From Flaccisagitta enflata (taxonomy: Eukaryota), in the NCBI GenBank assembly GCA_965153355.1, contig OZ231126.1, positions 23,622,001 to 23,686,000 on the forward strand: a stretch of 64,000 bases of DNA, given 5' to 3'. Numbering within the stretch: position 1 is the stretch's first letter; each line of letters opens with the position of its first letter. The translations under genes and the position numbers were made by a program. The notes under the pieces were generated by a model. The model did no database searches. It was not told the DNA's origin and was given only the letters and a program-made list of their open reading frames with translations. Positions 3,386-55,822 of this stretch are shown one piece after another.

Positions 3386-4054
3386 TCAAAATCTATGCAG
3401 TTCCGACAACTTTCTCTTTTTTTAAGCTGACTAGATGAAATTGTCAATCACTTACATTTTTCAGGGAGAAGAGAGTAAGAGAGAGAGAGAGAGACAAAGA
3501 CAGACAGAGAGACGGAGAGGGAGACACACACAAACACAAAGAGGGACAGTGAAACATTGTGAGACATTGAGAGACGGAGAGAGACAGACAGGTAGATAGA
3601 CAGACAGACAGGTTTATTGACTATTGGCTTGATTGGCGAATCTTGTTTCTAGACTAATAAACTGAAATGGAAAGTATCTAGTTTTTGAAACCGACAATTA
3701 TTTGAAGAACAATGATGATCTACTCCATAACAACAAAATGCACACTAAAATACGAATGATTGGCATTTGACAAATTAACAATTAAGGCTACAACAAAAAA
3801 GATTTATAAAGAAAAAGAAAAAAAACATGGTCAAAACAGTCATAAATCGGTGGAAGGCTAGAACATATAAAACGAGCTACACTTACTAATGTAAAATATT
3901 CAAGAGGATGATTTTTAAGGCATTACACGGAAGTTGAGCGCATTCGGATGATACTTATAAACATTAATGTAAAAACAATTCAAACATTTGATGAAACAAA
4001 TTTTGAGCAGGCTTGAGTTACTAATGACAATGTTACATCATATACCATCGACAT

Positions 4055-7000
4055 TTATTTAAGCATTTCCGCGTGTTCCATGACATGCTGCGAGACTCCG
4101 ACGAGAAATTCGGGACTCAATTTGTCGCATCTTCCCAAAGTCTCGTCGCAGACTTTGCACTTGATGATCAGCTTGTCCCTGCTCAAACTGATGCGCAGCA
4201 ACTCCAAAGTGTTGTCCTCGTCCTCGCTGTCGTAATTTGCCGCAGATGACGACGAAGATGTTGGAGGTGCTGCGGTGTTTTTACGCGGCAATTTTGCCGC
4301 AGGAGGAGGAGGAGGAAGAGGAGAAGCGGGTGGCGAAGGCGTTGGCGGAGGAGTGGCGATCTTGTTGTTGCGGATCACGTCGTCGTCGCACGGAACGATC
4401 GGCACTATCGGCAGCCGATACAGCTTCAAGTCTTGGTTTTCGTAGCTGAGCCACCAGCGCGCCGTCGCGTCGTTGAAGCCTTTGGAATGCGAAGGCTTCA
4501 ATTTCGGATTTAGCATTTTCTGCATTCTTTTGTTTTTGATGTCAGCTTCCCACGGCAGACTGTTGGCGGCGCAGTCCTTGCTGAAATTGACGGAATCTTT
4601 GCTAAAGGAAACGCGACGATTGTTATTCGGCAAAGACTGACGTTTTTTCTTGAGTTGGGAAGTTTTGAGACTGCTCGCTCGGGGGAAGGAGACGTTGGCG
4701 GGTTCCTCGTCGCTTTCCTCGCTGTTGCTGTAATCGTCATCGTCGTCGACCGTAATCTTCCTTGATAGAGTCTTCGCGTGCTTCGATTTAGGATTGATTT
4801 TCGGTAGGCAAGATCGTTGCAACTGATCGACGATGGAGAGTTGTTTTTTGTTGTTTCCCTTTTTGCTGCCAGCCTCGAGTCTAGCGAGTTGCTGCAAAGC
4901 CCTTTCGCGTTCTTCTTCCTTTGACATTTTCGCGACGCCTTTGGTTGGAGATGCTGCAGAAGCTTTGACATTCGTTTGCTTAAATTTCGACTTGTTGGTC
5001 AACACTGGACGTTGATAATTTTTACCGCCGCCGTTACTGCTACCGCGGAATAAATTGTCGCTGAGGCTGCTGTCGCTTTCATTATCCAAGCTACAGGCGA
5101 TTTTATTGGCAGCAGCGCCGATAGCTTTGCCGATAGACGGTCGAGCGTTTCCATCCGAAGATTTCCTTTTTGGTACTTTCAGCTGGTAAGTGTCGTTGAA
5201 AACCTCGGCGTCACTTTCATCCATGCTGTCGTTATCGTCATCATCGTCGTCGTCGTCGTTGTCCATGGGACTCGCTGGTTGAATTGCCTTGAGAATCTTT
5301 TTAGCTTCTTCCTTGATTTTCTTTGGAGATTTCGCGTTTTTGACATTTTTAGGTGACTTGTTGAAAACGATCGGAGTTTTGTTGATTTTAGGTCTCGTTG
5401 ATGTCCCAGACAGAACCATTTTTTTCTCTCGTTTGACTTCACAGTCGTCATCGTCGTCGTCTTCTCTCTTCCTCTTCCTGCTGGGTGTCCGGGAGGATGA
5501 TGCAGCTGCAGCTGATCGTCGCCATTTGCCTTTGATGACGGGAAAGTTCATGACGTTGAAGCCGACAGTTTTTCTTCCTGAGATGGTCGTCAACTCCAAA
5601 GTCTCAGTAGATATCTTTGAGCGGAGTCTGGAGATGCCTGGCGAGGGAGTTGGAGGCTCGTTTATAGAGTGATCCGTATCGGATGACAGCTCCTCCTCTT
5701 CCACCTCTGATGGCTTACTTTTTAATGCAGTGTCTTTTTTGGACATTTCCTCCTCCTCCAAATCGTCATCGACCTCCTCATCATCATCCTCCTCCACTAT
5801 TCTTCTCTCAATTTTGGCCTTCTTTGGCATCTCACCTTCTTCCAACTCGTCCTCTTCATCATCTTCCTCTTGTTCAATTTCTTTTCCCTTTTGCAACTTT
5901 TGCGAAATCTTTCCATCTTCCAACCCTTCATCTTCCTCTTCCTCTTCCTCAATCGCATTTTTCTCAACCTTTGCTTTCTTTCTTGGCACTTCTCCTTCCT
6001 CCAGCTCATCTTCATCCTCCTCCTCTTCTTCTTCTTCCAAGTCCTTTTCTATCTTGGCCTTTCTCGCCGGAGATCTCTCCTCCATTTCTTCCTCCTCTTC
6101 TTCCTCATCAACCTCCTCTTCATCTTCCTCCTCTTCGTCTTCTTCATCATCGCTGTAGGTCAGCTCACGACACATGGACACTTCCTTCTTGATCTCCACT
6201 TTGGGCTTCTTGACAAACTTATGGGCGTCTTCCGGTCTGTGTTCTCCGGAGCGCTTCCCAATGACGTTCCACGCCTTCGTAGATTGACCCGCCGCTTGGC
6301 TTTCTTTTTGCGACTTCCTTTTGCTACTTTTAGCGTCCAAATTTTTGACGACTTCTTTTTTGATGGCGACAGCATTGGTCGAATCTTTGGTCGCAGAGTT
6401 GGTTGTAGTTTTAGTTGCCGCTTTTGTCGCCTTCTTGGCAGATTTTTTTTTGCTCTCGGCTTCAAGTCTCGCGAGTTGCTGCAGAGCCCTTTCTCGCTCC
6501 TCTTCCTTTGACATATTTAAAGCTCCTTTTGACGATGATGAAGATGCTGTAGTTGCGGCAGTTGCGGCAGCCTTCGGTTTTGGCAGACTTTTTCCAAAAG
6601 CGAGACTCTCGGGCGACTTCTTGCTGATGATGAAGGCGTTGTTTGAAACCGAAGAAACGCGCTGATGCTGCAGCTGTTTTGGTTTTTTGTTTGCGGAAGA
6701 AGATGCTGCAGTTTCTGCGGTCGAGTTAGCTTCTTCATCGGTGACAGACTGCGTTGATGTCTGTGAAGGCCCATTGGCGGTAGATGATGATGACGCCGCA
6801 GTGTTTCCCACTTCTTTGGCTAGCGTAGCTGGTCCTTGCGCTTTTGCTGCAGCTTTACCCGATTGTTTCTCCGCGTCGTCCTCCGTCTCTGAATCATGCG
6901 GCGATGAAGATGGTGTGACGTAAGGTGACGAATCTGGCGAAGTTGTTGAGGGCTTCTTCGTTGACGCGGGTGGCTTCGACGGCTTTGGCTGCGGCTTGAC

Positions 7001-7435
7001 ATCAGCTGAAGGAGCCTTGGCCGCGGAAGCTTTGGTCGTGGGGGTTCTGCCTTTGCCTTTAGCTTTAGCCTCCAGTTTGGCCTTAACCTGTTCGACGGTA
7101 ATGCCCTCCAGTCTGGCCAATTGCTGCAGCGCCTTCTCGCGTTCCTCTTCCTTCGTCATCGACGGAGGCTTGGAGCCGCCTTTGGATGATGCGGTCGACG
7201 ACATGGTCGAAGGTGCCGTCGAAGTCTTGCTTGGGATGTTGAGATTCACAGTTTCGTCGCTGTTGTTATTTGTTTTAGCACTGTGGTTTTCTTCCTTTGA
7301 ATTCGATTTCTTGAAAAATGTGTTGATTCTGAGTTGATTTGCAAATGTATCGATCTTTTCCTTCTTAACAGACGCAGCACTCATGTTGGCTAAAGGCTTT
7401 GTTGAGCTGAAATACAAATGGACTAGTCGATGCAA
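4055..7435 (-). CDS. Orphan low-complexity nuclear protein (~1110-1126 aa) with 3x MxKEEERE(R/K)ALQQLARLE repeat, acidic tract and C-terminal CxxC..HxxxH zinc finger
   Basis: Uninterrupted 3.4-kb ORF. Repeat copies differ mostly at synonymous sites. AATAAA overlaps the stop. The likely true start is the AAC-ATG at 7384, just downstream of an acceptor-like ttgtatttcAG (7407-7408). Confidence 0.8.
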   Translation of the reverse strand: MHRLVHLYFSSTKPLANMSAASVKKEKIDTFANQLRINTFFKKSNSKEENHSAKTNNNSDETVNLNIPSKTSTAPSTMSSTASSKGGSKPPSMTKEEEREKALQQLARLEGITVEQVKAKLEAKAKGKGRTPTTKASAAKAPSADVKPQPKPSKPPASTKKPSTTSPDSSPYVTPSSSPHDSETEDDAEKQSGKAAAKAQGPATLAKEVGNTAASSSSTANGPSQTSTQSVTDEEANSTAETAASSSANKKPKQLQHQRVSSVSNNAFIISKKSPESLAFGKSLPKPKAAATAATTASSSSSKGALNMSKEEERERALQQLARLEAESKKKSAKKATKAATKTTTNSATKDSTNAVAIKKEVVKNLDAKSSKRKSQKESQAAGQSTKAWNVIGKRSGEHRPEDAHKFVKKPKVEIKKEVSMCRELTYSDDEEDEEEEDEEEVDEEEEEEEMEERSPARKAKIEKDLEEEEEEEDEDELEEGEVPRKKAKVEKNAIEEEEEEDEGLEDGKISQKLQKGKEIEQEEDDEEDELEEGEMPKKAKIERRIVEEDDDEEVDDDLEEEEMSKKDTALKSKPSEVEEEELSSDTDHSINEPPTPSPGISRLRSKISTETLELTTISGRKTVGFNVMNFPVIKGKWRRSAAAASSSRTPSRKRKREDDDDDDCEVKREKKMVLSGTSTRPKINKTPIVFNKSPKNVKNAKSPKKIKEEAKKILKAIQPASPMDNDDDDDDDDNDSMDESDAEVFNDTYQLKVPKRKSSDGNARPSIGKAIGAAANKIACSLDNESDSSLSDNLFRGSSNGGGKNYQRPVLTNKSKFKQTNVKASAASPTKGVAKMSKEEERERALQQLARLEAGSKKGNNKKQLSIVDQLQRSCLPKINPKSKHAKTLSRKITVDDDDDYSNSEESDEEPANVSFPRASSLKTSQLKKKRQSLPNNNRRVSFSKDSVNFSKDCAANSLPWEADIKNKRMQKMLNPKLKPSHSKGFNDATARWWLSYENQDLKLYRLPIVPIVPCDDDVIRNNKIATPPPTPSPPASPLPPPPPAAKLPRKNTAAPPTSSSSSAANYDSEDEDNTLELLRISLSRDKLIIKCKVCDETLGRCDKLSPEFLVGVSQHVMEHAEMLK

Positions 7436-7910
7436 CAGTTACTCTCTCCTAAAGGGAAATTCGGCTTCTTTACTTGTTTGTTTGTTTGTTTGTTTTTAAT
7501 CAACGGCGATGAATATGAGGTTGATACGGTTCAAAATCAGTAAAAAAGATGAAACAGTTTCCATGAAGCAATGGCGTAAACAGAATTCAATCTCGTTTGT
7601 TGTAGTAAAGAGTTCGGAGAAGGTGTGGTAAATGCCGGAGAGTAGCACGTTCGCCTGTTTGTTGAGATGAAAGTGAGAAATGGGAAAGATTACGGTTTCT
7701 TGGCTTTTATCTCATACGCAAACTGAAGCCCTCTTGGGCCAGTCTGAGTCAGTGGAGGACGCATAGGCCAAAAAAGTCGTTACCCCGACAGGATTGACTG
7801 TCGTCTCGAAATCCAGTCAGTAACAATGACACAAAAACAATCAACCCCCTAAAACTCTGTGAGATTGAGACAGTCGGAACCCCTAAAACAACCCTCAGTT
7901 CTCTTATCAC

Positions 7911-7942
<32 letters not shown>

Positions 7943-8417
7943 TCAACAGAAGTCGAGCATCGAGAACTGAAGTTTGAACCCGCATGCCCCGGGGAAATAT
8001 GCCAGATGATGGCGGTAGAATGATTTTGCCTTATTTGATGTTTTTTATTGTTGTGTTTTTCTTGCTTTAAAATCAAATCGTAAAATTTACGTTGATATAT
8101 TTATATTTTTTAAAGAATTCTTTTTTAGTCGCGTGCACGCGACTCTATGACCTACTCTGTCCGTCTTTTGTTTGGTTGGTTCGTCCGTCTGTTACGCTTA
8201 ACTTTTCATCGTTTTAAGTCATTTTTGGTCATTTTAAGTCATTTCAAGTTACATTTGATCTTTTAGTCCATTGGTGTTTTAGTCTTTTAGTCTTTTAGTC
8301 TTTTAGTCTTAACAACTGCATGCAACTTTAAGTGCGTCCTCCCACTTCTAGAAGATGTCATGTCCGTCGGTTGGTTGGTTGGTTGTTCAGGTACGCAAAC
8401 ATTTGAAATGTGCAAAC

Positions 8418-8718
<301 letters not shown>

Positions 8719-9929
8719 AAGGATTTTTTTTCTATCATTACAATGAATCCCATTTCTTTCCAACATCATCTGACATTCGAGCCAAAACTTCTAAAACTGA
8801 GTTTTCTCGAGCAGCCGACACCGACACTCTTGAAGTCAAAACTGAATCATCTATAAGACCCAATGATAATGAATGAGAAAGGAGGGAAAAGTTAAATCGC
8901 ATCAGTAGCAACCAATTCAACAGGTGATAAACAGACAGACCAACCAACGTCGCGATGAAGCAGCTTTTAAAGTAGGTCTGACGAGTTCTTGTTGATGGGC
9001 ATGAACAGAGATTGTTAAAGATAGAGATTGGTTAAAAGAGATTGTTAAAAAGAAAGAAAAAACTAACGGGAAATGGCAATCCAAACCAACGACGAGTGGA
9101 CAGACCGATTGAGCGAAGGGGCTTCCTGATCAACTCATAGAAAAACAACGCCAACACCTTTAAGTCGCGTGCGGGACATAAATAACTTAGGATGGCATAA
9201 ATTGACTTTAAATGATTCAAGATGACTTTAAATGACTTAAAAAGACATAAAATGATGTAAGAAGACATAAAATGATGTAAGAAGACATAAAATGATGTTA
9301 AATGACTTAAATGACTAAATTGACCTGATTAACTTAAGTGACTCAATATAACTTAATACACGCTCTTGACTGAGTTAACTTAAGTGACTCAATATAACTC
9401 AATACACGCTCTTGACTGAGTAACCACGGGTTTTTTTCTTCTGAGGCTCAATGTAGTTATTTGAATGACGATATGAGGCTCAAACCGTTGCTAAAATTTT
9501 TATCTTTAGTCGCGTGCACGCGACTCTATGACCCTTTCTGTCCGTCTATCGGTCGGTCCGTCCGTAACACTTTGCTTTTTTCGTCGTTTTACATCATTTT
9601 AAGTCACCACATTTTACAATTGAATGCAACGGAAAATATGGCGAATCTAAGAGAAAAGTTGTTATTGGTTAGACTTGAGGCTGAAATGTTGTTATATTTT
9701 TGATTTTCTGAGGCTGACGATGTTGCTAGAAATGTTCTTATTTTTGTCCCCAGCGAACAGTTTCATCTGGTGACTATGAGATGGACCCTGATTATTGTAG
9801 TCACATCGTTTGTTCGTTGTTAGTTCGATTAAAACAGCCTCATATCTTTTGAACAGGCTCAGAAGTTAAGTGAAAGCTTTGCCAGTGTTATTTTTATGTG
9901 AATGGAGCTTATTGTACCAATTTTCAAGA

Positions 9930-10470
9930 AAAATTCATTAAACTTTACCACTTTGCCTATTACTTTGTGTAATGTTAGCTGGGACTTAGGTGGTTTACGT
10001 AGGTAGGTAGTAAGGTTTATAATTTTTTTTAATTTATTATACAAGCAGAAGGAAAATAAATTAATAACCCCTGCAAAATTTGAATTAGATCTGAGGTCTG
10101 GTTCCTGAGATAATAACTGATTTATGTAGTAGTATGTTGCTAGGACTTAAAAGCAATTTTACATGGGCAAAAGGTAGTAGGTATGTGGTGCTACAATTTG
10201 GTTACCTTAGTGAGGGTAATGTAAATATTAACCCTGCAAAAATTAATTAAATCTGAAGTCTGGTTTATAAGATATTAGCTTATTTATGTAGTAATATGTT
10301 ACTATGACTTAGGCAGTTTACATAGGCAAAGGGTAGCAAAGTTATGTGAATTTTTTTAATTTGGTATAAAAAGTAAAAGGATGTGTTGGACACCCACATG
10401 AAGTCGAATCAAATCTGAAGTGGTTCATAAGATATTTGCTTATTAATGGTAATATGTACTAGGACTTAGA
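9930..10470. repeat. Diverged ~162-bp tandem repeat
   Basis: ATCTGA(G/A)GT recurs at 10089, 10251 and 10413 with similar flanks. Confidence 0.75.
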
Positions 10471-10554
10471 TTTATATAAAGGATTGGAGTTCTCTTGCCT
10501 GCTCATTTATTACATTCTGATTTTTCTTTAGGTTTGCCGTAAAACAGTTCAAGA

Positions 10555-11060
10555 TTCATCTTCAACAACTGTAATAATCATCAACTACTGTCATCATCAT
10601 TAACTATGCTTCTGTGATCATCTTCAACTACTGTATCATCTTCTTCTGTGATCATCTTCTAATCTTGCTGATGTCTTCAACTGTGTCATCTTGACTATTC
10701 TTCGTCATCTTCAACTACTATCTCATCTCCTTCAACTACTGTCATCATCTTCAGCTACTGTCATCATCTTTAGCTACTGTCATCATCTTCAGCTACTGTC
10801 ATCTTCAACTACTGTCATCATCTTCAACTACTGTCATCATCTTCAACTACTGTCATCATCTTCAACTACTGTCATCATCTTCATCTACTGTCATCATCTT
10901 CATCTACTAAATTTTTTAAAGAAATTTAAAAAAATCTTCAACTTCTGTCATAATCTTCCGCTTCTGTCATCATCTTCATCTACTATCATCATCTTCAAAA
11001 TACTATCATCATCCTCAACTACACTGTCATCATCTTGACTACTGTACTGTCATCTTCAAC
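10555..11060. repeat. ~19-bp minisatellite (TCATCATCTTCAACTACTG)n
   Basis: Directly visible tandem copies. Confidence 0.9.
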
Positions 11061-12737
11061 TGTTGAATTTTTTGAAAAGTTTTTTTTGAAATTTTTTTGC
11101 AAAATTTTTTTTAAAAAAAAATTTTATTTTTTTTTTAAGAAATTTTTTTTTTGAAAAAAAATTTTTAAATTTTTTTTTTTTTGGATTTTTTTTTTTTTTT
11201 AATTTTTTTTTTTTTTGAATTTTTTTTTTTGAATTTTTTTTCTTTTTATATATTTTTATATTTTTTTTTTCGAAAAATTTTTTAAACATTTTTTCCTTAG
11301 ATTTTGGTTGTCATTATCATTCATTGTTGTCATCATCATCCACTATTGTTATCATTGTCAAGTTTTGTCATCATTAAAACAATATTTTTTTTTTCTTGAA
11401 ATAGCTGTCTTGTAGTGTATCTTCTCGAGTTGCGTTTATAAGAAAGCTTCAAAAATTACAGTCCCCAGTCGGGGACTGTAATTTTGAAGCTTTTTTGACA
11501 TTTTGAGCCTCAACGTTGTTATAACGAAGGTTGTTACTCAGTCAAGAGCGTGTATGACTGTAAATGACTTAGAATGACTTAGAATGACTAAGAATGACTT
11601 CTACTGCCCTAAAATGACTAAAAACAACTTAAAGAAATAAAAAAAAAGTTTGACGGACAGACCGACCGACGGACAGACCGACCGACGGACAGACGGACAT
11701 AGCAGGTTGTAGAGTCGCGTGCGCGCGACTAAAAAGTCGCAAAAGCGTCGGATGGTCAGCGGTGCACGATGTCCCACTTTGAGTTTTTTAAGTTAAACAG
11801 TTATGTCGACAATCGCCGAAAGGGCAAAATCGTCCTGGCCACTTTTCACCAAGTCTTTGTCTCCAGTCACTGTAATATCTTTTGGTTGTTAGATTAAATC
11901 ATGAGCAATTGTATGAGTGAAAGTCCTTTAAACAAATTAAATAGCACCCTCCGCAACAAATTTGTTTAGCACCCTACGCAACAAGCAGGTACGCTTATTT
12001 GCATGCCTTTTTGTGTTTTGGTTACACAAGTAACAAACATTTTCATTTGCCACTAAAACTGACCCTGTTACAGTTGAGCTTCACTAGAGCGCATGCCAAG
12101 GGACTGGGCCAAATTATGCCACACAGTGAAGCTGCCTTATTGCCAACATAGAAATATCTACAAAATCTTTCAAGGGACTGTATATTAGATGCCTTATAAG
12201 CGGGCATGCCTTAATAGCGGGTAAGCTCTGGCGGTGCTCCACTGTACTTACATTGCAATTTTCTAATTCAAACCTGTCTTTGTCAAACTTGTTCATCTCC
12301 CCTCCAGTCTTTCAGTCACAAATTGTCGAACAGACTTTCTCTCTGCCTTTCCGTTTTTTGACTATCTGTCCGTCAGTTTGACTGTCTGTCTGTCTTTCTG
12401 TATTTCTGATATCCTGTGTTTCTGATATTCTGTCTTTTTTACTTTCTGTCTGTCTATCTATCTGACTGTCTGTCAGTCTGACTGTCTGTTTAAGTGTCTC
12501 TCTCTCTTTCTCTCTCTCTTTCTTTTTCTCTTTCTATCTCTCTTCCTCTTTCTCTTTCTCTTTCTCTTTCTCTTTCTCTTTCTCTTTCTCTTCCTCTTTC
12601 TCTCTCTCTCTACTAATCGGGTGGATATGTTTTTTCTGTCTGTCTGCCTTTCTGTATTTTCAACATCTTGTTTTTTCTGTCGTTTTATCTTTGTTTCTGT
12701 CTGTGTTAGTCTGTCCGTCTGTCGGCCTGTGTCCACG

Positions 12738-18706: not shown

Positions 18707-21700
18707 CAGTTCAAAGCGGATAAAGCAGTCATACCTCGCAATTTAAAAAAGGCCACATTTACACTCTCAGCAGTCGACAATATTGATCACAATACTAGTG
18801 GAAATCAATCCATGGACTCATTCCATGGTACATCCATCACCATGCACCAACAGCCAACAGAATCATCAATCAATCAAGAAGCCTTCCAGATGACCAACCA
18901 AGGCTACACAATTGAACTTCCAGAATCCTACAGTGTTATTGAGGATATTGAGGGCATAGTGGGGGCTAAAACTCGAGTGGCTGCCACTACAAAAGTAGTG
19001 AATTATCCAATCATTGACTTTGAAAAAGAATTGGGTAAAGAAAAGGAGTGGTCGAACCAGAGCAAAATTCTGCTCTCTCAATCATCATTGGCTGAGAATG
19101 ACATGATAAGCTATTCAGGTTATTTCTCTAAAAAACATGCCGCTGATAACGATGTCACGCCTGCAGTGACTGGAATTTTTCCTGTTTTCCATCAAAAAGC
19201 AGCCGAAAAACCCATGCTAAAGCACACCATGAAACAGGTATGTACTGCTGTTCAACATTTGAATGGCAATCAGATTCCCATCCTTGTTGGGGATCAACCC
19301 ATCTTTGCAATTCTGAAGACGATACAATGGGAGTACAGTCAGTACAATGAGCAAAAAACAGTGGTGCTACTGGGTGGTCTTCATACAGAGATGAATGTAT
19401 GGTCTGTTGTTGGTAAACTGATCGATGGTTCAGGAGTAATTGAATGTTTAGCTGAGGCAAATGTGACCACAAGTGGTCGTGCTCAAAGCATCATTAATGC
19501 ATCCCATCTCAAGCGGACAAGATATGTACATGAAATAGTACATGTGGTATTTCAAGATCTGAAGCATAAAGCGTACAGAGAGAGTTGATCAGATCTATCC
19601 ATTGATGAATGGACTTCAATCAGATGTGGTCAATCCCCAAATTTTTTCTTTTGGGATATGATCCTTCGTTTCCAAGCAAAAATTTTTGCTTTTGTTAGAG
19701 CTCACAGAGAGAGAAACTTTGACCTGTATGTAAGTTCCTTGGAGGAATTATGTCCCTATTTCTTTGCTCTGGACAGCCCAAATTACTCTCGCTGGGCCCC
19801 AGTTCATGTGCGTGATATGAAGTGTCTGCCTCAATCAGTTTTGGAGGAATTCAAAAAAGGGAATTTCACTGTGACAAAGAGTAATCACAAGTTTTCCTCC
19901 ATTGCAATTGATCAAGCACATGAGTAAAGCAACAAGCTTATAAAGGGTTCAGGGGGCCTTGTTGGATTGTTTCATAATCAGGAGTCTCTAATTCAAGGCC
20001 TCATTAATGCTCCAGAAATTGCAAGACTTTTGCAAGAATTTGGAAAAACTCTACCAAATTGGGGAGTAGAAGAGGACGATAGTGATGTTATGCTTGAGCA
20101 CCATGAAAGCTCGCCTAGTTTTCAGAAAAACTTTCATGCAAAAGCCAACAATTTGCTATCCAAAGTTTGTCTCCATGGAAATCCGTTTTCCATTGATCAT
20201 CCAAACATGCTTAACCTAAGCAATGGAGATGCATATGACCCTTTGATTGATGAAACTCATAGAAACCTAGAGAAAAAAGGGAAGGAACAGTACAAAACTT
20301 TTGTTGGTGAGGTCTTACAAAATGGCAGTAGATCTTTATATGATCCAATTACCAAAAACTCTTTTCCACTCATGAGCACACCATTGAAGCGTATGACCAC
20401 AGCTGGAAACAGAGTGAAAATCATCAAACTTAACAGTGAAATATTTTCAGAAGCAGCGGCAGTTCTTGAACACAGAACATTTCCTATTGAAAAAATCTTC
20501 AATTTTGAGCAGCACTTTTTCGCTCCAGCAATTTCTGACTTCGGTGAGTTGCATCTACCAAAAAACAAATCTGATCTGGTCTATACCATTGTTACTCCAT
20601 GTCATAATCCTCCTGCGGTAGGTGAGGCTGAATTTGATCCTACGTCAACTATTATACTGGATGGATTAAGACTTGTTACCCAATTTCATCCAAATCCTTC
20701 CATGACATTCATTGACTATGTCAATTACCTGAGCAAAAATGTCATCAGCCTTTTCTTTGTGTTCAGTCAAAGGGTGGACATAGTGTTTGAAACCTTTTTG
20801 GAAAAAAGTCTCAAGGCTTCTACACGTCAAAAAAGAGGCCATGGACCAAGGCGCAGTGTTTCCAAACTGACCAAATGCCCAAGCAACTGGGCCCAGTTTC
20901 TCAAGGACTCACTCTTCAAGGAAGAGTTGTATACATTTTTGGCGGAAGAACTGACTCCTCTTACCTATCCTGAAAGTAGACAATTGTATGCAACTTCTAA
21001 AGAGAACGTTTTATCCAATGGAAGTCTTCCTATGGAGGATTGTGACCATGAAGATGCAGATTCAAGAATGCTTTTACATGCGAAGCATGCCATATCTCAA
21101 GGAATGAACAAAGTAAGAATCCTAAGTAATGACACTGATGTAGTCATCATTGGTCTTGGTGTATATCACAGGCTGCGTGCAAGCTTCCATTTTGAAGACA
21201 TCATCATTGAGTTTGGTCTAAAAAAAGACCACAAGGCTATCAGCCTAAAATCTCTAGCGGAATCTCTTGGAGAACTTCGCTGTCAAGCTCTCCCTTTCTT
21301 TCATGCCCTGACAGGCTCAGACACCACATCTGCATTTAAGAGTATTGGTAAGAAGAAAGCATATGAAGCTCTGAAAGTATGTCCAAATGCAGAATCAACT
21401 TTTGGGTTCATTTTCAATAACCCTTTTCATAATTTCGCTCAGGATGATGCTAAGTTTGAAAGCATTCAAAGATTCACAATTCTGATGTACCACAAGACAT
21501 CAATGTTGACAAAGGTCAATGAGGCCCGTAAGCGTTTTTACTTCCAGCGGACTAAAAACATTGAAACTATTCCTCCAACAGAGGATGCACTGTTCTTGCA
21601 TACTTTGCGGGCAATTTATCAGGCTGGAGTCTGGAGTAAGTCATTAGAAATTTGACAAAACCTTCCATCACCTCAAGCTTTTGGCTGGAAGGATTCAGAT

Positions 21701-38334: not shown

Positions 38335-38625
38335 ATGTTAACCATGGCGACGATGAGCACGTATAACGTGGACACGTTATTGTCGTCGCGTGGTGGCGGC
38401 GGCGGCGTCGGTGGCGTCCCAGGAGGCGGCGGCGGAGGCGGTGGAGGCGGCGTCGATAGCGCCATCATGGACAAATTTAACGTCAACGGCACCGTCAACG
38501 GAAGCGTTAACGGCGTCAACGAATATTCCGGCGCCTTGAATCATCACAATTCCAACGCCTACGGCGCTCATTGCAATTACCCTCCTCATTCGCAGCCGCT
38601 GCATCCCAGCGTTGGCGCCTCTCAA

Positions 38626-38657
<32 letters not shown>

Positions 38658-39517
38658 ACAACAACAACATCCTCATCAGCCTCAATCGACGCCTCCCCAT
38701 CAGCCTCACACCCCTTCGGGCTTACCCTCGGACATTACCAATGGGGGTGGTGCAAGTGGGAATGGTTCTCATAAGTATCACACAACGAACGGTTGGGGTA
38801 ATCATCATCATCAATCGATGGGCACCCCCAATAACTCGGCCCCTTCCTCGTACTCTTGTCACGGCGCGGCTCTTTCAGCGTCCGCCGCCGCCGTGACTTC
38901 CAGCCCCCGATGCCCCAGCGTCGGCTCGATGGGGGCAGCTCACGGAGGAGCCGGAGGAGGAGGAGGAAGTGGCAGTGACTATTCCGCGTATCAGCCTCCA
39001 GGCGCCACCGGCGCCCCAGGAACGCCAAATGAAAACGATTACGTGAAAATGACGGTTTGCGCGGACACTTACGGCGGACACATTCCGGGACACATCGGAC
39101 AAGCGTCGCATCCGTACGGACATTCTCAACATCCATCGCAACAGCATCAGGCCGCCCAACAACAGCAACACTCGGCCGCCCAACAACATCAGTCTCAACA
39201 ACAGCAACAACAACAGCAACAGCAAGGACATCCGAATCGGTGGTCGCCCCACCCGAATCAAACGCCCCCTCACGGTGGCGGCCACAGTCCAGTGTTGGGC
39301 AGTTCGTACTCGTCTCCTCAAAACCAGGGTCTCGGTATGCCGCATGACGGATTCTCCTCTCAGGGGCATCCGGGCGCCATATCTTCCCAACATCAGGATC
39401 TTCCCAACAACCACAGTCCCATCCACAGCATCTCATCGTCTCAATGTTATAACAACGGCGGTCATCAACAGTCCGGAGGACCGCCAACACCCTTCTATCC
39501 TTGGATGAGCTTAGCAG
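38335..39517 (+). CDS. Hox: Central-class Hox gene exon 1 (Ubx/abd-A/Lox2/Lox4, Hox8-like); homeobox exon not found in this window
   Basis: N-terminal MSTYNVDTLLS resembles Hox MSSY/YVDSL starts; G/Q/H/P-rich body; hexapeptide FYPWM followed by SLAG and an immediate phase-1 donor CAG|GTAAAT (39518). Ubx has FYPWMAIAG at the equivalent junction. The paralogy group cannot be fixed without the homeodomain. Confidence 0.88.
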
Positions 39518-39599
39518 GTAAATCATTGTTAAAAACGTCTGGCTAGCTTACTGCTTGTGTTTTCTTACGCGTCTGCATGTGTGTGCGTGCGAGTGCATG

Positions 39600-46794: not shown

Positions 46795-48366
46795 ATGGAT
46801 CCGGACCAGAAAATGCAAAACATTAACATTATGACTTCGCTCCTCTCTGATTTTAGTCATAAGAAAGACCTTAGAACTACCGCTTCAAAGAAAAAGAAAT
46901 GCCACACCAATGGAAAGATATTGAAATCTGAATTATGTTCATTGCACTTCACCAAAAAAAGAGACCTTACTCTACACAAGATGGCACATGCGGGGGAAAA
47001 GCCACTAACATGTCAGCACTGCCCTGCTTCATTTTCTGGCCTTAAGGAATTGAAAGTACACAAACGGACCCACGCCAAGGAGACATCGTTGAGATGTGAT
47101 CTTTGCCTCTCTACTTTTGTTGCTAGGGCTAAGTTGGCAGAACACATGAAAACCCACACTGGCGAGAAACCGTTCAAATGCGATTTTTGCCCAGCTGCAT
47201 TTTCTGCGAATAGAGGTTTGGTGGGACACAGAAGGATACACACCAATGAGAATCCATACACCTGTAAGCTTTGCCATGCTTCTTTTCCTCGAAGCGGTGA
47301 CTTGAGGGTTCACACTAGGGCACACACTGAAGGTAAAAAGAAAAAATTCACATGTTATCATTGTCCTGCTTCATTTTCTCAAAAAGTTAATTTGACAGGA
47401 CACATGAGAACCCACACTGGCGAAAAACCATTTACTTGTGACAGTTGCCCTTCTGCTTTTACTGAAAAAGGCAATCTGGCCCGACACAAGAAAATTCACG
47501 CTCACGAGAAACTATTCAAATGCGATCTTTGTCCTACTGCTTTTTCTCATAAAAGTGCTTTGATAGCACATAAGCGAACCCACACTGGAGAAAAACCATA
47601 TATTTGCGATGCTTGCCCTGCCTCTTTTTCTCAATCAAGTAATTTGACGCGACACAAAAGAACTCACACCGGCCACAAGAATTACAAATGTGAACTTTGC
47701 CCCGCTGCCTTTATTGAAGCTCAAAACCTGAAACAACATCAAAAGTTGCACACCGGTGAGAAACCATTTGGGTGTGATCTTTGTCCAGTTGCTTTCTCTC
47801 GTAAAGGTGACTTAACGAGACACAAGCGGACCCACACCGGTGAAAAACCATACTCATGTGATGTTTGCCCTTCTGCTTTTGCCCTCAAAAGAAATTTGAC
47901 GAGGCACAAGAGAATTCACACTGGCGAGAAAATTTTCAGATGTGAAATCTGCCCTGCTACATTTACCCATAATGTGTTGAAGAGTCACATGAGGGTCCAC
48001 TCTGGCGAAAAGCCTTTTAAATGTGACATTTGCTCTTCTGCGTTTTCTACAAGTAGCGATTTGACAATTCATAAAAGAATCCACACCGGCGAAAAACCTT
48101 TTAAATGTGACATTTGCTCTTCTGCTACTTCTACAAGAGGTGAATTGACATCTCACAAGAGAATCCACACCGGAGAGAAACCGTTCAGTTGTCATCTATG
48201 CCCGGCTATATTTACTGCAAGGAATAGTTTAGCGGAACACAAGAAAACCCACGCTGGTTGGCCGCGAGCACGCAGAGAAAAAATACATAATGCCGGAAAA
48301 CGTTCTGAATCTGATCCTCATGCGAAAATTGAATATGAACCAGCGCAAGTAAAAGTCGAACTATAG
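46795..48366 (+). CDS. Tandem C2H2 zinc-finger protein (15 intact fingers plus degenerate N-terminal fingers)
   Basis: Repeated CxxC-x12-HxxxH units with TGEKP-type linkers (one finger is a residue short); C-terminal VKVE SUMO-like motif; AATAAA at ~48545; acceptor tttcacAG at 46743. Confidence 0.92.
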   Translation: MDPDQKMQNINIMTSLLSDFSHKKDLRTTASKKKKCHTNGKILKSELCSLHFTKKRDLTLHKMAHAGEKPLTCQHCPASFSGLKELKVHKRTHAKETSLRCDLCLSTFVARAKLAEHMKTHTGEKPFKCDFCPAAFSANRGLVGHRRIHTNENPYTCKLCHASFPRSGDLRVHTRAHTEGKKKKFTCYHCPASFSQKVNLTGHMRTHTGEKPFTCDSCPSAFTEKGNLARHKKIHAHEKLFKCDLCPTAFSHKSALIAHKRTHTGEKPYICDACPASFSQSSNLTRHKRTHTGHKNYKCELCPAAFIEAQNLKQHQKLHTGEKPFGCDLCPVAFSRKGDLTRHKRTHTGEKPYSCDVCPSAFALKRNLTRHKRIHTGEKIFRCEICPATFTHNVLKSHMRVHSGEKPFKCDICSSAFSTSSDLTIHKRIHTGEKPFKCDICSSATSTRGELTSHKRIHTGEKPFSCHLCPAIFTARNSLAEHKKTHAGWPRARREKIHNAGKRSESDPHAKIEYEPAQVKVEL

Positions 48367-49680: not shown

Positions 49681-49774
49681 AAGAAAGAGAGAGAAGGACA
49701 GACAGACAGACAGAGGCTAAAAGATAGTCAGACCAACAGCCAGAAATGTGAATATTAAAAGAGAGCGAGGAGGT

Positions 49775-52700
49775 GATGAGCATGTTGGCTTGTCTTTGCA
49801 GTCCTGCGCTGAATGGTTTGGGCAGAAACAGTGAAAACATAGACGTTTCTCAGCCAACTTCTTCACACGATCCTCTGCTGACGGGATGGCTTCCAGAACG
49901 TTGCACGAATGGGAATTATGACGACCTCCACAAATATTGCAGATGTCGTTGGGTTGTTGCTTCGGAGGTGAGTTGACGAGCTGTTCCTTGAACGTCGCCG
50001 GACCAACTGCCGTCGCTGCGACCTTTGTCGGTTTTGGCGCCATGCGTGTTGGTTCTTTGAGGTTGTTGTACGATACCCAATGCTTCACCTCCTCGATGAG
50101 TTCTTGGAAGCCGTAGGCCGTGCCGTGGCGGGCTTGTTCACGCGCGCTCGCTTTCCAATAGTCCGTCGAGATATGTGGCACCCTCGCGTTGATGATGCGG
50201 CGGATGTGGACGTCACGATCACACTCTCCAGGTACATTCAGCAATTCTGCGACGCTTTCCAGCTTGTACAACGTGCCAATCAATGCTTGATGGGCTCTCA
50301 TGTCGTTTTCTGGAACCTTTCCTTTCCTGCAGATGCTGTCGACGGCCGATTGGAATGGGTTGGCGCTCGTGTTGAACATCTCGTCCAGGCGTTTCCACAA
50401 AGTGCTGTAGACACGGCGCATATTGTGCGCCCTGATGATAAGTTGTTGACCGTTGATGATTTCCTTCGCTGGATTCGCGAAGACGTTGGCCAATTCAGTC
50501 ACTTTGTCAATTTCGTCCAGCTCGATGTTGGAGGCGGCATTTTCGAATTTGGATTTGGCAATGATATAGTCGATCGGCTCGAGGTATCCATACGCTTCTC
50601 TTGGACGTGCTGCGCGCATTTCCCTCAATCCCACGTCTTTTGCTCTGACGCGGGCGTCGTAGGCGATCGGGTTGTCCATGAAGGAGACCGCGTTCATCCT
50701 CTCGGCGAAAGACTGCGAATGCGCGAGGCCGTTTCGTGCGGAGTCACTTCCGGTTTGACGTCTTTGATACGTAGGAGGCGACGGCGTTGGGGGCGGCGTC
50801 TTCCTCGACTTCCGTCTGTCGACGCGCTCGAACCCTTCGTCGCCAAAGACGTCGTCAACCAGGGGGCGCTGACTCCCGCGTGCGTGGCGTGATGCTTGCG
50901 GAGCTGGAAGATCACCCGCGATCTGGCGGACGATGACGGGTGAGCTTGGCGATGGCGGCGTCGATTTACGCGGTGGAGCACGTGTCTGCAAAACGACGCT
51001 GTCCTCCAGGTTGAGGTCTCTGATCAATTGTTGGAACCTTGCCATTGCGTCCGCGTGATCCATCGCGTGCTTTTCTTGCTCCGCTGCATCTTGTCTCGTG
51101 CGCAGTTGCTCGTGGAGAGGATGTTCACGTGCGGCTGGGGGTGGCGTTCTTGATGGTAGTTGTCTCTGCTGGCCTTTTCTTTGTGCCTCCTCCCTTCCTC
51201 TTCTCCTCCTCCTCCTCCTCTTCCTTCTTCTTCTCTTCCTCCTTTTTCTTTTCTTCGTGTCTTTTCTTCTCCTCCATCCTCTTTCTTTCTTCCGCGTCTC
51301 TTTTGCCACCGCCTTCCTTCTCTCCTCCTCTGCTTTCCTCTCTGCTTCCTTCCTTTTCTTTTCTTCTCTCCTCTCTTCTCTCTTTTCTCCTGTGCGATCT
51401 TGTTTTTCAAGTTCGTCCTCCTTTCCTCCTCCTGCTCCTTTCTCGTCTCCTCTGCCTTCCTTCTCACTTCTTCAGCGTGGATGCGTTGTCTTTCCTCCTC
51501 CTCCTCCTTCTCTTTCTTCCTCCTCTCCTCCTCCTCCCTTCTTTTCCTCTCGTCGATTCCGGCCGTGACTGCGTCTGTCCGGGCAGTAACGGCTGCGTCT
51601 AATGCGATGTTTGTCGTCAACTGCCGGGCGTTCTCTTCGCGTTGTTGAGATACAGACTGCGAGCTGAGACGGAATCGCGTATTTACGCGTGCTTCTCTCG
51701 CCACCAAGCGTCGAACTTGATTAATGTCGTTGACGAGACGTTTGACGACATGCACCATCGCGTCGCCTTGAGCGTCTCTGTCGCCGTCAATAATCGACTG
51801 CTGTAACATGTTGAGAAGATCTTGTGTGGGAGGGGCGCCACCAACGGCGCCTGGAGGGAGGTCGGCGTCGTCGTTCGGCCATGACGTTTCCATCGCGTCG
51901 TCGGCGTCGTCGCCTTCGTCGTCTCTGGCCGACATAAAACGCGACCTCGCCGGCGTCACCGGCGTTGGAGGTTCGAAGTTTATACGTATTTCCTCGGCGT
52001 CTTCTATCGCGCCTGGCGTATGGGGCGGCGCGTTGTGACGTTGCTCCGCTGCATTGAGGTTCGCTGCTTCCGTGCCGACGGGCAAGTCGTCCTCTCCCGC
52101 GTCTTCATCGTCGCCGGTCACGTTCGGCGTTGATTTGCGTCGTCGTGAAAGGGATTGGACGAAATGCGTCGACGACCCCATCGTCATCTCGAGAGCGCGT
52201 TTTGCCCAGTCTCTGGTGACTCGTCGGGATGTCGGGTAAGTCGTGGCAGGAATAAATGCGACGCAAAAGTGTTTTTGTCGTGGAAGCATGATTGGTCCCA
52301 CAGTTTCCGTACTTCTGTCAATGAGCTTTCGGCCGTCGATAACAGTGACGCCGCTTTGTCGGGGTTGTTGGTCGACTCTGCATGTGCGTAAGTCTTTGTC
52401 TGGTTGACAAGTCGCCACGCCGCTAACCACACTTCCTTTCGAAGGCAGTCCATATCTTGGTAAAAGTCCAATATATCGTCGTCGTTGAGAGTATCGGCGG
52501 TTTTCAACGCCGACATGTAGGCGTTGCGTGTGTTGCGTAGTGCCTTTCGTAACCCGCGAAGCGTCGTATCAACGAGGTCCATTGCGCCCGCGTAGACGGA
52601 TGAGTCGGAAACGACGGACACGCAGTCGGTTGGTCGAAAGGCTTTTCTGCGTTGATTGGGCAGCGAAGGTGGCGGCATTGATATCGCGGCAGTGTTGGCG

Positions 52701-53545
52701 TAGTTGTTGGCGGTCGACATCGTTGACGCTGTGTGGATCGGTGATGGTTTTTGATTCCACGAATTGAGATCGTTTAGCGTCTAGTTTCTTAGCAAGCTCC
52801 TGATGCGCAATCGCGAGAACTGACTCCACTGCGTAGCTGCAAGACGGGGAACGCACACCCGCTTAGGAACGAATTGTTGAGATGAGCGGTCAAGTTGTCC
52901 GCGAAATCAGTCTATTCATGGAATCCTGACGGATAGAGAAAAAGGAAAAAGGTTAGGACAAGCTCTGTACATCAATGAAGGATACTTCTGTATGGCGCCA
53001 AATGATAAAAGGTCAAGGACTTACACGGATGTTGTCGAACGGTTTCCAATCTAGGCGCAGGGCAGGGAAGTCGGGGAAAAGCATCAAAATCGAGTCTTTA
53101 ACTGAGATCGTGAAATCGAATGTCAGTAAGAAAGTCAGGGAAGCTACTTTTACTTAACCTGGAAATAAATAAAATGAATCAAAGCATCACGAGATTTGAA
53201 ATTATTTGGCAGCAATGAAACAATGATAAATAGACTCGTCACGTCGTGGGAATTCGATAGAGGGGTCGAAGTCTTTTCTCCTCTAAGCGGTTGAGGAGAT
53301 ATAGTCCATCAATCCTCAACCGGAAGTCAGCGCTTCCGGCGTGCGCGCGCGTTCCTCCCCTTCCTCCGTCGATCGAAGATCTCTCTCCTTCTTCCTCGAT
53401 TTCCTCCACTCTGCAGTCGAGCAGACGCCATCTTGGATTTTCGGCAGCGAGAGAGCCCCTCCTCTTCTTCGGGATCCGCGGAGTCGACTGCATCCGATCG
53501 AGCGCTTCTTGACCTGGAATGGTGGGGAATGTGCAGAATGTCACA
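49775..53545 (-). mobile_element. BEL/Pao LTR retrotransposon remnant: 5' LTR + frameshifted gag, pol deleted
   Basis: gag pieces 52184-52720, 51024-52430 and 49717-51309 end in zinc knuckles CNICGGRH....C and CFHCFCPNH....C, then break off into microsatellite. Putative LTR 52875-53545 (TGT...ACA), followed by a degenerate PBS-like TCGTTCCTAAGCGGG. Confidence 0.78.
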
Positions 53546-53597
53546 GGGCCCCTGCCCACCCGCACGCGACTAGGGTAGCCGTGTATCCGGCCTTGTT
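53546..53597 (+). mobile_element. 3' end of a Helentron-like copy cut by the LTR insertion
   Basis: gggcccctgcccacccgcacgcgactagggtagccgtgtatccggccttgtt closely matches 28363-28414 and begins exactly at the LTR edge. Confidence 0.75.
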
Positions 53598-54180
53598 GCA
53601 TTATGTCCTTATCTTTTATTGCAGTAGAGAAAAATCATACTGTATTAGCCATTCTTTGGCTCCAAATCAACCATCAAAGGCCTTTTATCAGCCCTCTCAT
53701 GATATTATACTTAAACTTTGCAAAATTCAAATCTGCTTTTGTATGCGCATAACAGCACAAACCTAGTTTCTTCAAGCCTTTTCAAAAGCCTAATTCTGAC
53801 TATGTTCTTCCTAGGTCTCCTGATCTTTTACTTTGATATCTCCTTCAATTTTGGCTATTCCAACTTACTGAGAAAATACACTTCTATATTCATGATCATT
53901 AGCCTCTTTGGGCCAATGATTTACTCTCACCGCACTTCTACAGCAGAACAGCACAAGTGATCTTCAAATGACTTGTTCTTTCATCTACTCTTCATCAATA
54001 TTGCTTGCTCCATCTATTTCTTTTTCCCTCCCCTCTTTTCTTTTCCTCTTGATGCTACTCAACCTTTTCCTTTCCCCAACAAATACCTCTATAGTGAGTT
54101 ACGTGATCTCTTACAAATAACCCTGGAATGAAACATAATTGATTGACAAACTACCCTCATTCCCTTTTACACACACACAC

Positions 54181-54293
<113 letters not shown>

Positions 54294-54559
54294 CAGGGTC
54301 TTAAATGCAAGTTATCACAATTGTTTACAGTAAACAGTTTATCAAAAAATCATCACTTTTTTGCATGCATGAATAATGTTCATATCGAGGCAAAATTTGT
54401 TCACTTCCTATCATGAGACAGGATTACTTGAGTAAAATGTCTCAAGTACCTTGATTATTCAAAAACTGTCTACTTCTGTAAGATAAACCATCAAAAGGAG
54501 ATGCTAATTTACATTATGCCATATCCAAATGATTGGTCAGTTCATCAGCTAAACATAAC

Positions 54560-54770
54560 TTTTTAGTCGCGTGCACGCGACTCTACATTCCGCTTTTTCT
54601 GTCCATCCATCCTTCTCTTGATGGGTTTGTCAGTCCCATACTTATACTAACAATTTCATTTTTTCAAGTCATTTAAGGTTATTTTAGGGTATACCAAGTC
54701 ATTCTAATCATTCTATGTCATTTTAAATGTAAGTCTTGCACGCGACTTATAAATATTAACCGTGTTTGTT
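54560..54770 (+). mobile_element. Helentron-like non-autonomous element
   Basis: tttttagtcgcgtgcacgcgactctac ... cacgcgactt ... ccgtgtttgtt. Confidence 0.65.
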
Positions 54771-55419: not shown

Positions 55420-55822
55420 TTTTGGGCAGCGGCCCCGAAGGGGACGAAGTCCTGTTAAACACAGGGAGACTTTTGTTTGTCTGTTCATTTGTCCGTCTGT
55501 TCATTCATTTGTTAGTCCCCCCAGGCCTGAAATCTGCCCTCTCAGGCCTGAAACCAATCCTTTTTGGCCTTTCTCAGGCCTGAAACCAATCCTTTTTGGC
55601 CTTTCTTCTGCCCTCTCAGATGAAAGGCCTGAGGGGGCAGATTTCAGGCTTGAGAGAGCCTGGGGGGCTGACAGACGGACGAATGAACAAAAGTCCCCCT
55701 GTCCTCCACAGGACTTTGTCAAACTTAGGACCGCTGCCCTACTTCCTCGCATTCCAATTTACAACTATGCAAAGCAGGGCAACTGGTATCGCTGACCACA
55801 TATTGCCCTTGGGCGACCTGTT
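55420..55822 (+). mobile_element. Second non-autonomous repeat family with subterminal inverted repeats
   Basis: GGGCAGCGG...GACGAAGTCCTGT is inverted to ACAGGACTTTGTC...CCGCTGCCC; internal AGGCCTGAAA repeats; related fragments at ~16090-16230 and 18100-18200. Confidence 0.55.

What the first reader, a model, noticed from the sequence alone, without database searches (positions are those of the whole stretch)
4055..7435. Intact orphan protein that looks like a multi-motif nuclear scaffold (PIP box + ARS2-type motifs + PP1 RVxF + zinc finger)
Seen: an uninterrupted ~1100-codon ORF among decayed elements, mostly disordered, with QLRINTFF (7313-7336), acidic ..EEGE(V/M) units, RKTVGF and RRVSF, several (V/I)K(K/R)E sites, basic NLS-like runs and a terminal CKVC-x20-HVMEH. 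Known: QxxIxxFF is the PCNA-binding PIP consensus, RVxF docks PP1, and EEGEI-type peptides bind ARS2. Inference: a lineage-specific or transposon-derived adaptor that could link the replication clamp, PP1 and the cap-binding/ARS2 RNA-sorting machinery. I know no protein family with this combination. Short motifs can arise by chance in disordered sequence.
Basis: partly seen in the sequence, partly recalled or inferred. Interest (0 to 1): 0.8.

Follow-up and report, generated by a model that had tools for sequence, protein, structure and literature searches.

The report
Orphan disordered nuclear protein gene
This is a real, single-copy gene for a long, almost wholly unstructured protein with no known relatives, carrying a likely clamp-docking motif and a thrice-repeated, strongly conserved short helix, but what it binds remains untested.

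Summary
The ORF is real: 4055..7435 (-), with the likely start at the ATG at 7384, giving 1109 aa.

It behaves as a coding gene:
- Both listed indels inside the CDS are multiples of 3; all 3 outside are not.
- 9 of 19 listed CDS substitutions are synonymous, against 22% expected.
- RNA-library contigs cover only 3894-7421.
- A partial homologue at 38% identity exists.

No family was found in Pfam, PDB sequences, 1.84 billion protein representatives, metagenome or viral contigs, the Atlas, or fold searches. AlphaFold2 puts 1009 of 1109 residues below pLDDT 50.

Against shuffles:
- PIP box: p about 0.006.
- EEGE units: p 0.0004-0.005, but they are tandem duplicates, and only one fits the published ARS2 pattern.
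- RVxF and SUMO-type sites are near chance.

M[ST]KEEERE[KR]ALQQLARLE[AG] occurs three times with the same residues but 7-8 of 19 codons synonymously different.

There are no transposon hallmarks. No binding was tested. The organism's own polyA RNA run gave no unique reads.

The parts
4055..7384 (-). Single-exon coding sequence: 1109 codons plus the stop at 4055-4057 (P0001).
   Evidence: define the ORF. GC is 0.48 against 0.32-0.36 in the flanks. CDS indels are multiples of 3 and 9 of 19 listed substitutions are synonymous.
3818..7421 (-). Minimal extent covered by contigs from RNA libraries, a transcript-like footprint. The 3' UTR is at least about 237 nt. AATAAA overlaps the stop codon.
   Evidence: X3 has depth only in bins 3894-7421, X8 record 17 starts at 3818, and DNA run X1 covers all 30 bins. 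Sequence read.
7313..7336 (-). PIP-type box QLRINTFF (aa 17-24), followed by KK.
   Evidence: Shuffle p 0.006.
7061..7159 (-). Helix motif copy 1, MTKEEEREKALQQLARLEG, plus a second helix (aa 76-108). This is the only confidently predicted segment of the full-length model.
   Evidence: AF2 places helices at 78-92 and 97-108 with pLDDT 66-77.
6458..6514 (-). Helix motif copy 2, MSKEEERERALQQLARLEA (aa 291-309).
   Evidence: DNA repeat D12 pairs 6447-6540 with 4860-4953 at 77% identity.
4871..4927 (-). Helix motif copy 3, MSKEEERERALQQLARLEA (aa 820-838).
   Evidence: Against copy 2, all 19 core residues are identical while 8 codons differ.
5744..6073 (-). Tandem units of about 26-28 aa (aa 438-547). 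Each is a basic P[RK]KKAK[VI]E[KR] stretch, an acidic tract, then LE[ED][GE][EK][VIM]. They hold EEGEV (5987-6001), EDGKI (5906-5920) and EEGEM (5828-5842).
   Evidence: (family D7, spacing 78-84 nt).
5558..5575 (-). RKTVGF (aa 604-609), an RVxF-type match.
   Evidence: The count of such sites is near chance.
4985..5323 (-). The region shared with the only distant homologue (aa 688-800). Conserved blocks are K..KEA.K.LKAI.PA, an acidic tract, [VL]F[NS]DTY.LK.P.RKS.D, SS[LI]SDNLF and [YF]QRP.
   Evidence: P0003, 37-38% identity; P0002, 95%.
4604..4618 (-). RRVSF (aa 923-927), a canonical RVxF-type match.
4061..4210 (-). C-terminal small domain (aa 1059-1108), predicted as three strands plus a helix. 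It contains C1076-x2-C1079 ... H1100-x3-H1104 (4073-4159).
   Evidence: 70-aa model, mean pLDDT 71.7. No clear fold match.

Best explanation
This is a single-copy, single-exon gene of a marine animal. It encodes a taxonomically restricted, intrinsically disordered, probably nuclear protein that works through short docking motifs rather than folded domains.

My committed mechanism has four parts:
1. The canonical N-terminal PIP-type box tethers the protein to the PCNA sliding clamp.
2. The several K-K-x-K runs import it into the nucleus.
3. The three selected copies of the amphipathic helix M[ST]KEEERE[KR]ALQQLARLE[AG] are its main multivalent partner-binding modules. The partner is unknown.
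4. The acidic/basic tandem units (with one ARS2-type EEGEV), RRVSF and the small C-terminal Cys/His domain are possible secondary docking sites.

Shown: the gene is real, constrained, disordered, without a known family and not a transposon. The helix motif is under purifying selection.

Inferred only: nuclear location, PCNA binding and every other partner.
For: Coding and constraint:
- A 1109-codon frame.
- The two listed indels inside the CDS are 3 and 6 nt. The three listed outside it are 1 nt each.
- 9 of the 19 listed CDS substitutions are synonymous, where 21.7% is expected for random changes.
- In X8 record 17, at least 19 of its 32 differences fall in the 237-nt 3' UTR part, and only 2 listed ones fall in the 615 nt of CDS.

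Transcript-like footprint: X3 contigs have depth in 24 of 30 bins, exactly 3894-7421. DNA run X1 covers all 30.

Homologues: P0003 at 38% identity and P0002 at 95%.

Helix motif: copies 2 and 3 have 19 of 19 identical core residues with 8 codons synonymously different. Copy 1 against copies 2 and 3 shows 3 conservative changes with 8 and 7 synonymous codon differences.

PIP box: 1 match against 0.006 expected, p 0.006. It sits at aa 17-24 with a basic flank.

Disorder: 1009 of 1109 residues have pLDDT under 50.

NLS-like runs: 9 K[KR].[KR] matches.

Not a mobile element.
Against: - No binding was tested. The one complex job was not folded.
- The organism's own polyA RNA run X10 gave 18 laid reads out of 12.16 million read (about 6% of the run). 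All 18 lay only partly on the stretch, at acidic low-complexity parts, so there is no unique evidence of expression in that sample.
- The RNA support comes from contigs of metatranscriptome libraries. These cannot show strand and could hold DNA.
- No homologue covers the PIP box, the helix copies, RRVSF or the C-terminal domain, so their conservation across species is unknown.
- The substitution list is partial: 106 further rows were not shown.
- RVxF and SUMO-type counts are near chance.
- No E2F-type site lies upstream of the gene. There were 9 window matches against 7.7 expected, none in 7385-8200.
Confidence: 0.4

Rival explanations
1. The gene is real and the protein disordered, but the named motifs (PIP, RVxF, EEGE, psi-K-x-E) do not act as read. 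The protein is a generic acidic/basic nuclear or nucleolar protein, of the histone-binding or condensate-forming kind. Only the three helix copies and the aa 688-800 blocks are functional.
For: RVxF and SUMO-type counts are near chance. Only 1 of the 3 EEGE-type units fits the published ARS2 pattern. The charge blocks are strong: net -22, -16 and -20 over aa 401-550, flanked by positive blocks.
Against: A canonical PIP pattern is rare in a protein with only 30 aromatic residues (p 0.006). It also sits near the N-terminus with a basic flank, which I recall as typical of known instances.
Confidence: 0.35
2. It is a highly diverged orthologue of a known replication or chromatin factor (for example CAF-1 large subunit, Ki-67/Repo-Man-type PP1 scaffolds, or FLASH) whose disordered sequence has drifted beyond detection.
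For: The architecture is loosely reminiscent of such factors: PIP box, acidic region, a PxVx[LI] match PIVPI at aa 992, RVSF and an EEGE-type motif. Disordered proteins often escape sequence searches.
Against: No Pfam family matched at E up to 1 on the whole protein or up to 10 on its parts. That includes the families I recall for CAF-1 and the Ki-67/Repo-Man PP1-binding region. No long helix of the kind I recall for CAF-1 is predicted. phmmer against 1.84 billion representatives gave only two fragments.
Confidence: 0.15
3. It is a transposon-derived or virus-derived gene.
For: MITE-like inverted repeats and microsatellites lie near by. Retroelement ORFs are in the same window. GC is higher than in the flanks.
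Against: No repeat pair brackets the ORF other than GA microsatellites. There is no other copy in the window. DNA contig depth over the gene (about 130-270 outside the low-complexity bins) is like that of the flanks. No transposase, integrase or capsid family matched. There is no relative in viral contigs.
Confidence: 0.05
4. It is a chance or dead open frame that makes no protein.
For: The organism's own polyA RNA sample gave no unique reads. Much of the frame is of low complexity.
Against: A 1109-codon frame is very unlikely by chance. There are in-frame-only indels in the CDS, an excess of synonymous changes, a conserved peptide motif with synonymous divergence, and a homologue at 38% identity.
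Confidence: 0.03

Closest known systems
Disordered PCNA-binding proteins with a PIP box (p21, PAF15; N-terminal PIP boxes of DNA ligase I and UNG2). The names are recalled; the p21 instance QTSMTDFY was seen in PMC4666095 (passages).
   Same: A Q-x-x-[ILM]-x-x-[FY]-[FY] motif lies in a disordered stretch with a basic flank, here close to the N-terminus.
   Different: There is no sequence relationship, no catalytic or CDK-inhibitor domain, and the protein is far longer. The PIP-degron variant (T-D at positions 5-6 and a basic residue at +4, recalled) is not met.
ARS2 partners with EDGEI/EEGEI motifs (Red1/ZFC3H1, FLASH, ZC3H4/6/18), from PMC9402713 (passages read).
   Same: EEGEV fits the published relaxed pattern [ED][ED]GE[ILV]. 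The motif sits in tandem copies within an acidic region, as that paper reports for ZFC3H1 and the ZC3H proteins.
   Different: Only 1 of the 3 units fits. There are no CCCH fingers and no FLASH-like domains, and no binding was tested.
PP1 scaffolds with an RVSF/RVTF docking site (KNL1, Ki-67, Repo-Man; recalled). RVxF is listed as the PP1 docking motif in PMC4666095 (passage).
   Same: RRVSF lies in a basic disordered stretch.
   Different: No Pfam match to any family, including the PP1-binding family I recall for Ki-67/Repo-Man. No SILK-type site was found (0 matches). The count of such motifs is near chance.
RPA32C-binding helices of XPA, UNG2, SMARCAL1 and TIPIN, from PMC9407234 and PMC11387677 (passages).
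   Same: A short amphipathic helix with an R-A-L...A-R-L flavour. As in UNG2, it lies downstream of an N-terminal PIP box. This resemblance is recalled, not computed.
   Different: XPA binding relies on six basic residues facing an acidic RPA32C surface. The motif here is net -1, with an EEE-E run. Neither the segment nor a profile of the three copies hit any PDB chain sequence at E up to 10.

Membership tests
PIP-box PCNA interactors | A Q-x-x-[ILM]-x-x-[FY]-[FY] motif in an accessible, disordered region. | tested here: met
   QLRINTFFKK at aa 17-26 fits this consensus and a stricter ELM-style pattern; both patterns are recalled. pLDDT is under 50 over aa 1-76. Shuffle p 0.006.
PIP-box PCNA interactors | Physical binding to PCNA. 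| not testable with these tools
   No PCNA of the organism is on hand. The complex job with a stand-in was not folded.
PIP-box PCNA interactors | The motif is conserved in orthologues. | not testable with these tools
   No homologue covering the N-terminus was found.
PIP-degron substrates of CRL4-Cdt2 | T-D at motif positions 5-6 and a basic residue 4 after the motif (consensus recalled). | tested here: not met
   The sequence is Q-L-R-I-N-T-F-F-K-K-S-N. Positions 5-6 are N-T and position +4 is N.
ARS2-binding EDGEI-type motif | [ED][ED]GE[ILV] (PMC9402713). | tested here: met
   There is 1 exact match, EEGEV at aa 462-466. EEGEM and EDGKI do not fit. Binding was not tested.
PP1 RVxF docking | [RK]-x(0,1)-[VI]-{P}-[FW], present more often than chance. 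| tested here: inconclusive
   There are two sites (KTVGF, RRVSF). Shuffles give 0.55-0.76 matches and p 0.03-0.055 for a count inflated by one overlap.
Classical C2H2 zinc finger | C-x2-4-C-x12-H-x3-5-H with a beta-beta-alpha fold (spacing recalled). | tested here: inconclusive
   The spacer is 20 residues, not 12. No zinc-finger Pfam model matched at E up to 10. The model is three strands plus a helix at pLDDT 71.7. The best fold rows are Foldseek E 0.38 and VIA Z 3.8. The SWI5 finger 1 row (Z 3.5, rmsd 2.4, 45 aligned) is tied with unrelated rows.
RPA32C-binding motif | A basic amphipathic helix that faces the acidic RPA32C surface (PMC9407234). | tested here: not met
   The core KEEERERALQQLARLE has 4 basic and 5 acidic residues. 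There were no PDB sequence hits at E up to 10.
CAF-1 large subunit | A match to the family's Pfam models and a long K/E/R helix (both recalled). | tested here: not met
   0 Pfam families at E up to 1. No helix longer than 18 residues is predicted.
Transposable element gene | Terminal repeats around the ORF, multiple copies, and a transposase, integrase or RT domain. | tested here: not met
   No bracketing TIR or LTR. A single tblastn hit in the window. No such Pfam domain. DNA contig depth is like that of the flanks. Whole-genome copy number could not be checked.

The most novel reading that the evidence does not exclude
A lineage-specific replication-coupled adaptor. It would ride on PCNA through its N-terminal PIP box and use a new, thrice-repeated helical docking motif, together with PP1 (RRVSF) and ARS2 (EEGEV) sites, to bring phosphatase and nuclear RNA-sorting machinery to replicating chromatin.
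Probability: 0.06. Interest if true: 0.6.

Novelty: new member of a known kind. Interest (0 to 1): 0.3.

Why it matters
If the reading holds, the protein would be an example of how a lineage builds a new nuclear scaffold almost entirely from short docking motifs. The three-copy helix would be a candidate new peptide-recognition motif with an unknown partner.

As it stands, it is a well-supported orphan gene whose function is predicted from short motifs only. It is useful as an annotation, but it does not bear on any open question.

Tried and rejected
Searches that found no relative or family:
- Pfam on the whole protein and on its parts gave nothing above cut-off. The best rows were DUF4674 (E 0.072) and SRA1 (E 0.02), both below their cut-offs.
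- PDB sequence search with the whole protein gave only low-complexity rows at E 0.47 or worse.
- The search for homologous proteins found nothing in three tries: near length, shorter proteins with aa 860-1109, and longer proteins with alignment A1.
- A metagenome-contig scan with a degenerate pattern for the helix motif found 0 matches. The search for related loci found 0 confirmed among 588 pattern matches.
- In viral contigs, 0 of 479 pattern matches were confirmed.
- The Atlas gave scores of 0.82 or less for aa 930-1109, which is chance level, and no usable hit for aa 1-115.
- A paper search for the helix core string found 0 papers. A paper search for the motif combination found 3 papers, judged from their listings (one also from passages); none describes such a protein.
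- Earlier findings of this scan held nothing.

Leads rejected:
- The RPA32C-binding reading of the helix motif was rejected on charge and on the absence of PDB sequence hits.
- An E2F-site scan found none upstream of the gene.

Jobs that gave no result:
- Complex prediction with the N-terminal 60 aa and an archaeal PCNA stand-in was not folded and gave no verdict.
- No whole genome is held, so copy number, paralogues and the organism's PCNA, PP1 and ARS2 could not be fetched.
Full report
**The observation**

The minus strand carries one uninterrupted frame from 7435 to 4055 (1126 codons from a TTG). The first ATG is at 7384, in the context gccaacATGa. From there the product is 1109 aa (P0001). 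A tttcag lies just upstream at about 7409, so a 5' UTR intron is possible. I could not test that.

- QLRINTFF at aa 17-24 (7313-7336)
- LEEGEV, LEDGKI and LEEGEM at aa 461, 488 and 514
- RKTVGF at aa 604 and RRVSF at aa 923
- five psi-K-x-E sites
- C1076-x2-C1079-x20-H1100-x3-H1104 at the C-terminus

**Is it a gene?**

The GC content of the ORF is 0.48, against 0.32-0.36 on either side.

I laid four public runs on 3600-8000.
- DNA run X1 covers all 30 bins. Its contig depth is about 130-270 outside the low-complexity bins, similar over the gene and its flanks.
- Contigs of metatranscriptome library X3 have depth in 24 of 30 bins. These are exactly 3894-7421, with nothing in 3600-3893 or 7422-8000.
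- X8 covers 16 bins, from 3747 upward. One of its contigs runs 3818-4669, straight through the stop codon.
- These contigs are 95-99% identical to the window, so they come from close relatives or other alleles.

The variants point to coding constraint.
- The two listed indels inside the CDS are 3 and 6 nt. The three listed outside it are 1 nt each.
- In X8 record 17, at least 19 of its 32 differences lie in the 237-nt 3' UTR part. Only 2 listed ones lie in 615 nt of CDS.
- Of the 19 CDS substitutions that the table listed, 9 are synonymous, where 21.7% is expected for random changes. A further 106 rows were not shown, so this count is partial.

One result goes against expression. The organism's own polyA RNA run X10 gave only 18 laid reads out of 12.16 million read (about 6% of the run). 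All 18 lay only partly on the stretch, at the acidic repeats. That sample therefore gives no unique evidence of expression. Contigs also cannot show strand, and RNA libraries can hold DNA.

**Relatives**

No family or full-length relative was found.
- Pfam gave no family at E up to 1 on the whole protein. On its parts it gave only two rows, both below their cut-offs.
- PDB sequences gave only low-complexity rows.
- phmmer against 1.84 billion representatives gave two fragments. P0002 is 94 aa and 95% identical over aa 656-747. P0003 is 124 aa and 38% identical over aa 688-784, with the source label 'merc'.
- The word-indexed searches found nothing. Nor did the metagenome and viral contig scans or the Atlas.

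The alignment with P0003 shows conserved blocks:
- K..KEA.K.LKAI.PA
- an acidic tract
- [VL]F[NS]DTY.LK.P.RKS.D
- SS[LI]SDNLF
- [YF]QRP

The protein therefore has at least one distant relative.

**Structure**

AlphaFold2 on the single sequence gives mean pLDDT 36.9, with 1009 of 1109 residues under 50. The only confident segment is aa 78-108, a helix-turn-helix with pLDDT 66-77.

The last 70 residues folded alone give mean pLDDT 71.7, with three strands and a helix. Fold searches found nothing clear: the best Foldseek E-value was 0.38 and the best VIA Z was 3.8. An extended C2H2 finger (SWI5 finger 1: Z 3.5, rmsd 2.4, 45 aligned) was tied with unrelated rows. A zinc-binding mini-domain is plausible but not shown.

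**Chance tests**

With 5000 shuffles, both global and within 100-aa blocks:
- The PIP pattern arises with mean 0.006, p 0.006.
- The [DE][DE]G[DE][ILVM] count of 2 has p 0.0004 and 0.005. The two copies lie in tandem units of 78-84 nt, so they stem from one duplication.
- RVxF-type matches number 2 distinct sites against 0.55-0.76 expected.
- psi-K-x-E sites number 5 against 2.4-2.6 expected. Neither of these last two is convincing.

Against the published relaxed ARS2 pattern [ED][ED]GE[ILV] (PMC9402713, passages read), only EEGEV fits.

**The strongest signal**

The peptide M[ST]KEEERE[KR]ALQQLARLE[AG] occurs three times, at aa 76, 291 and 820. Copies 2 and 3 share all 19 core residues, yet 8 of the 19 codons differ synonymously. 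Copy 1 differs from each of the others by 3 conservative residues, and 8 (against copy 2) or 7 (against copy 3) of the unchanged residues use different codons. The surrounding sequence has diverged: 17 to 27 of 40 residues are shared.

Old duplicates that kept their peptide while their codons drifted indicate purifying selection on each copy.

I considered an RPA32C-binding helix, a resemblance recalled from XPA, UNG2 and SMARCAL1, and rejected it for two reasons.
- That interaction relies on basic residues facing an acidic surface (PMC9407234, passages), whereas this core is net -1.
- Neither one copy nor a profile of the three hit any PDB chain sequence at E up to 10.

The partner of this helix is unknown.

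**Not a mobile element**

- No TIR or LTR pair brackets the ORF. The only shared flank repeat is a GA microsatellite.
- tblastn finds no second copy in the window.
- There is no transposase or viral relative.
- MITE-like inverted repeats lie at 2289-2896 and 8122-11735.

**Mechanism**

I commit, at 0.4, to a disordered nuclear scaffold.
- It is tethered to PCNA by its N-terminal PIP box.
- It is imported through its K-K-x-K runs (9 matches).
- Its three selected helix copies act as multivalent docking modules.
- EEGEV, RRVSF and the C-terminal mini-domain are possible secondary sites.

Only the gene's reality, its constraint, its disorder and its orphan status are shown. All partners are inferred.

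The main rival, at 0.35, is that the named motifs are chance features of an acidic/basic nuclear protein.

The one complex job, which used an archaeal PCNA stand-in, was not folded.

**Verdict**

This is a well-supported orphan gene for a disordered protein. Interest is modest.

Noticed in passing
window 38335-39546 (+): A 403-aa Q/G/H-rich ORF ends in ...PPTPFYPWMSLAGKS. This is a Hox-type hexapeptide (YPWM; name recalled), as in first exons of Ubx/abd-A-like genes. No homeobox (WFQNRR) occurs anywhere in the window, so the homeobox exon would lie beyond it. The orphan gene thus sits about 31 kb from a Hox-like exon.
   Followed up: partly
window 46795-48366 (+): A 523-aa ORF with an array of classical C2H2 zinc fingers (zf-H2C2_2, E 7e-109).
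   Followed up: no
window 49717-62400 (-): Retroelement remains. A gag-like ORF with two CCHC knuckles lies at 49717-51309. An integrase C-terminal DUF5641 lies at 59228-60181 (E 7e-20). An ORF with a YIDD motif, RT-like, lies at 61645-62400. They are broken into separate frames.
   Followed up: partly
window 18812-21655 (+): Two adjacent ORFs of 258 and 562 aa have no Pfam match. They may be a repeat-element gene; this was not examined further.
   Followed up: no
window 8122-11735 and 2289-2896: There are two MITE-like or foldback structures. One has 71-nt arms, 80% complementary and 3.5 kb apart, upstream of the gene. The other is a perfect 29-nt inverted repeat with arms 550 nt apart, downstream of it. 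A (ATA)n array of about 100 units lies at 8418-8720.
   Followed up: no
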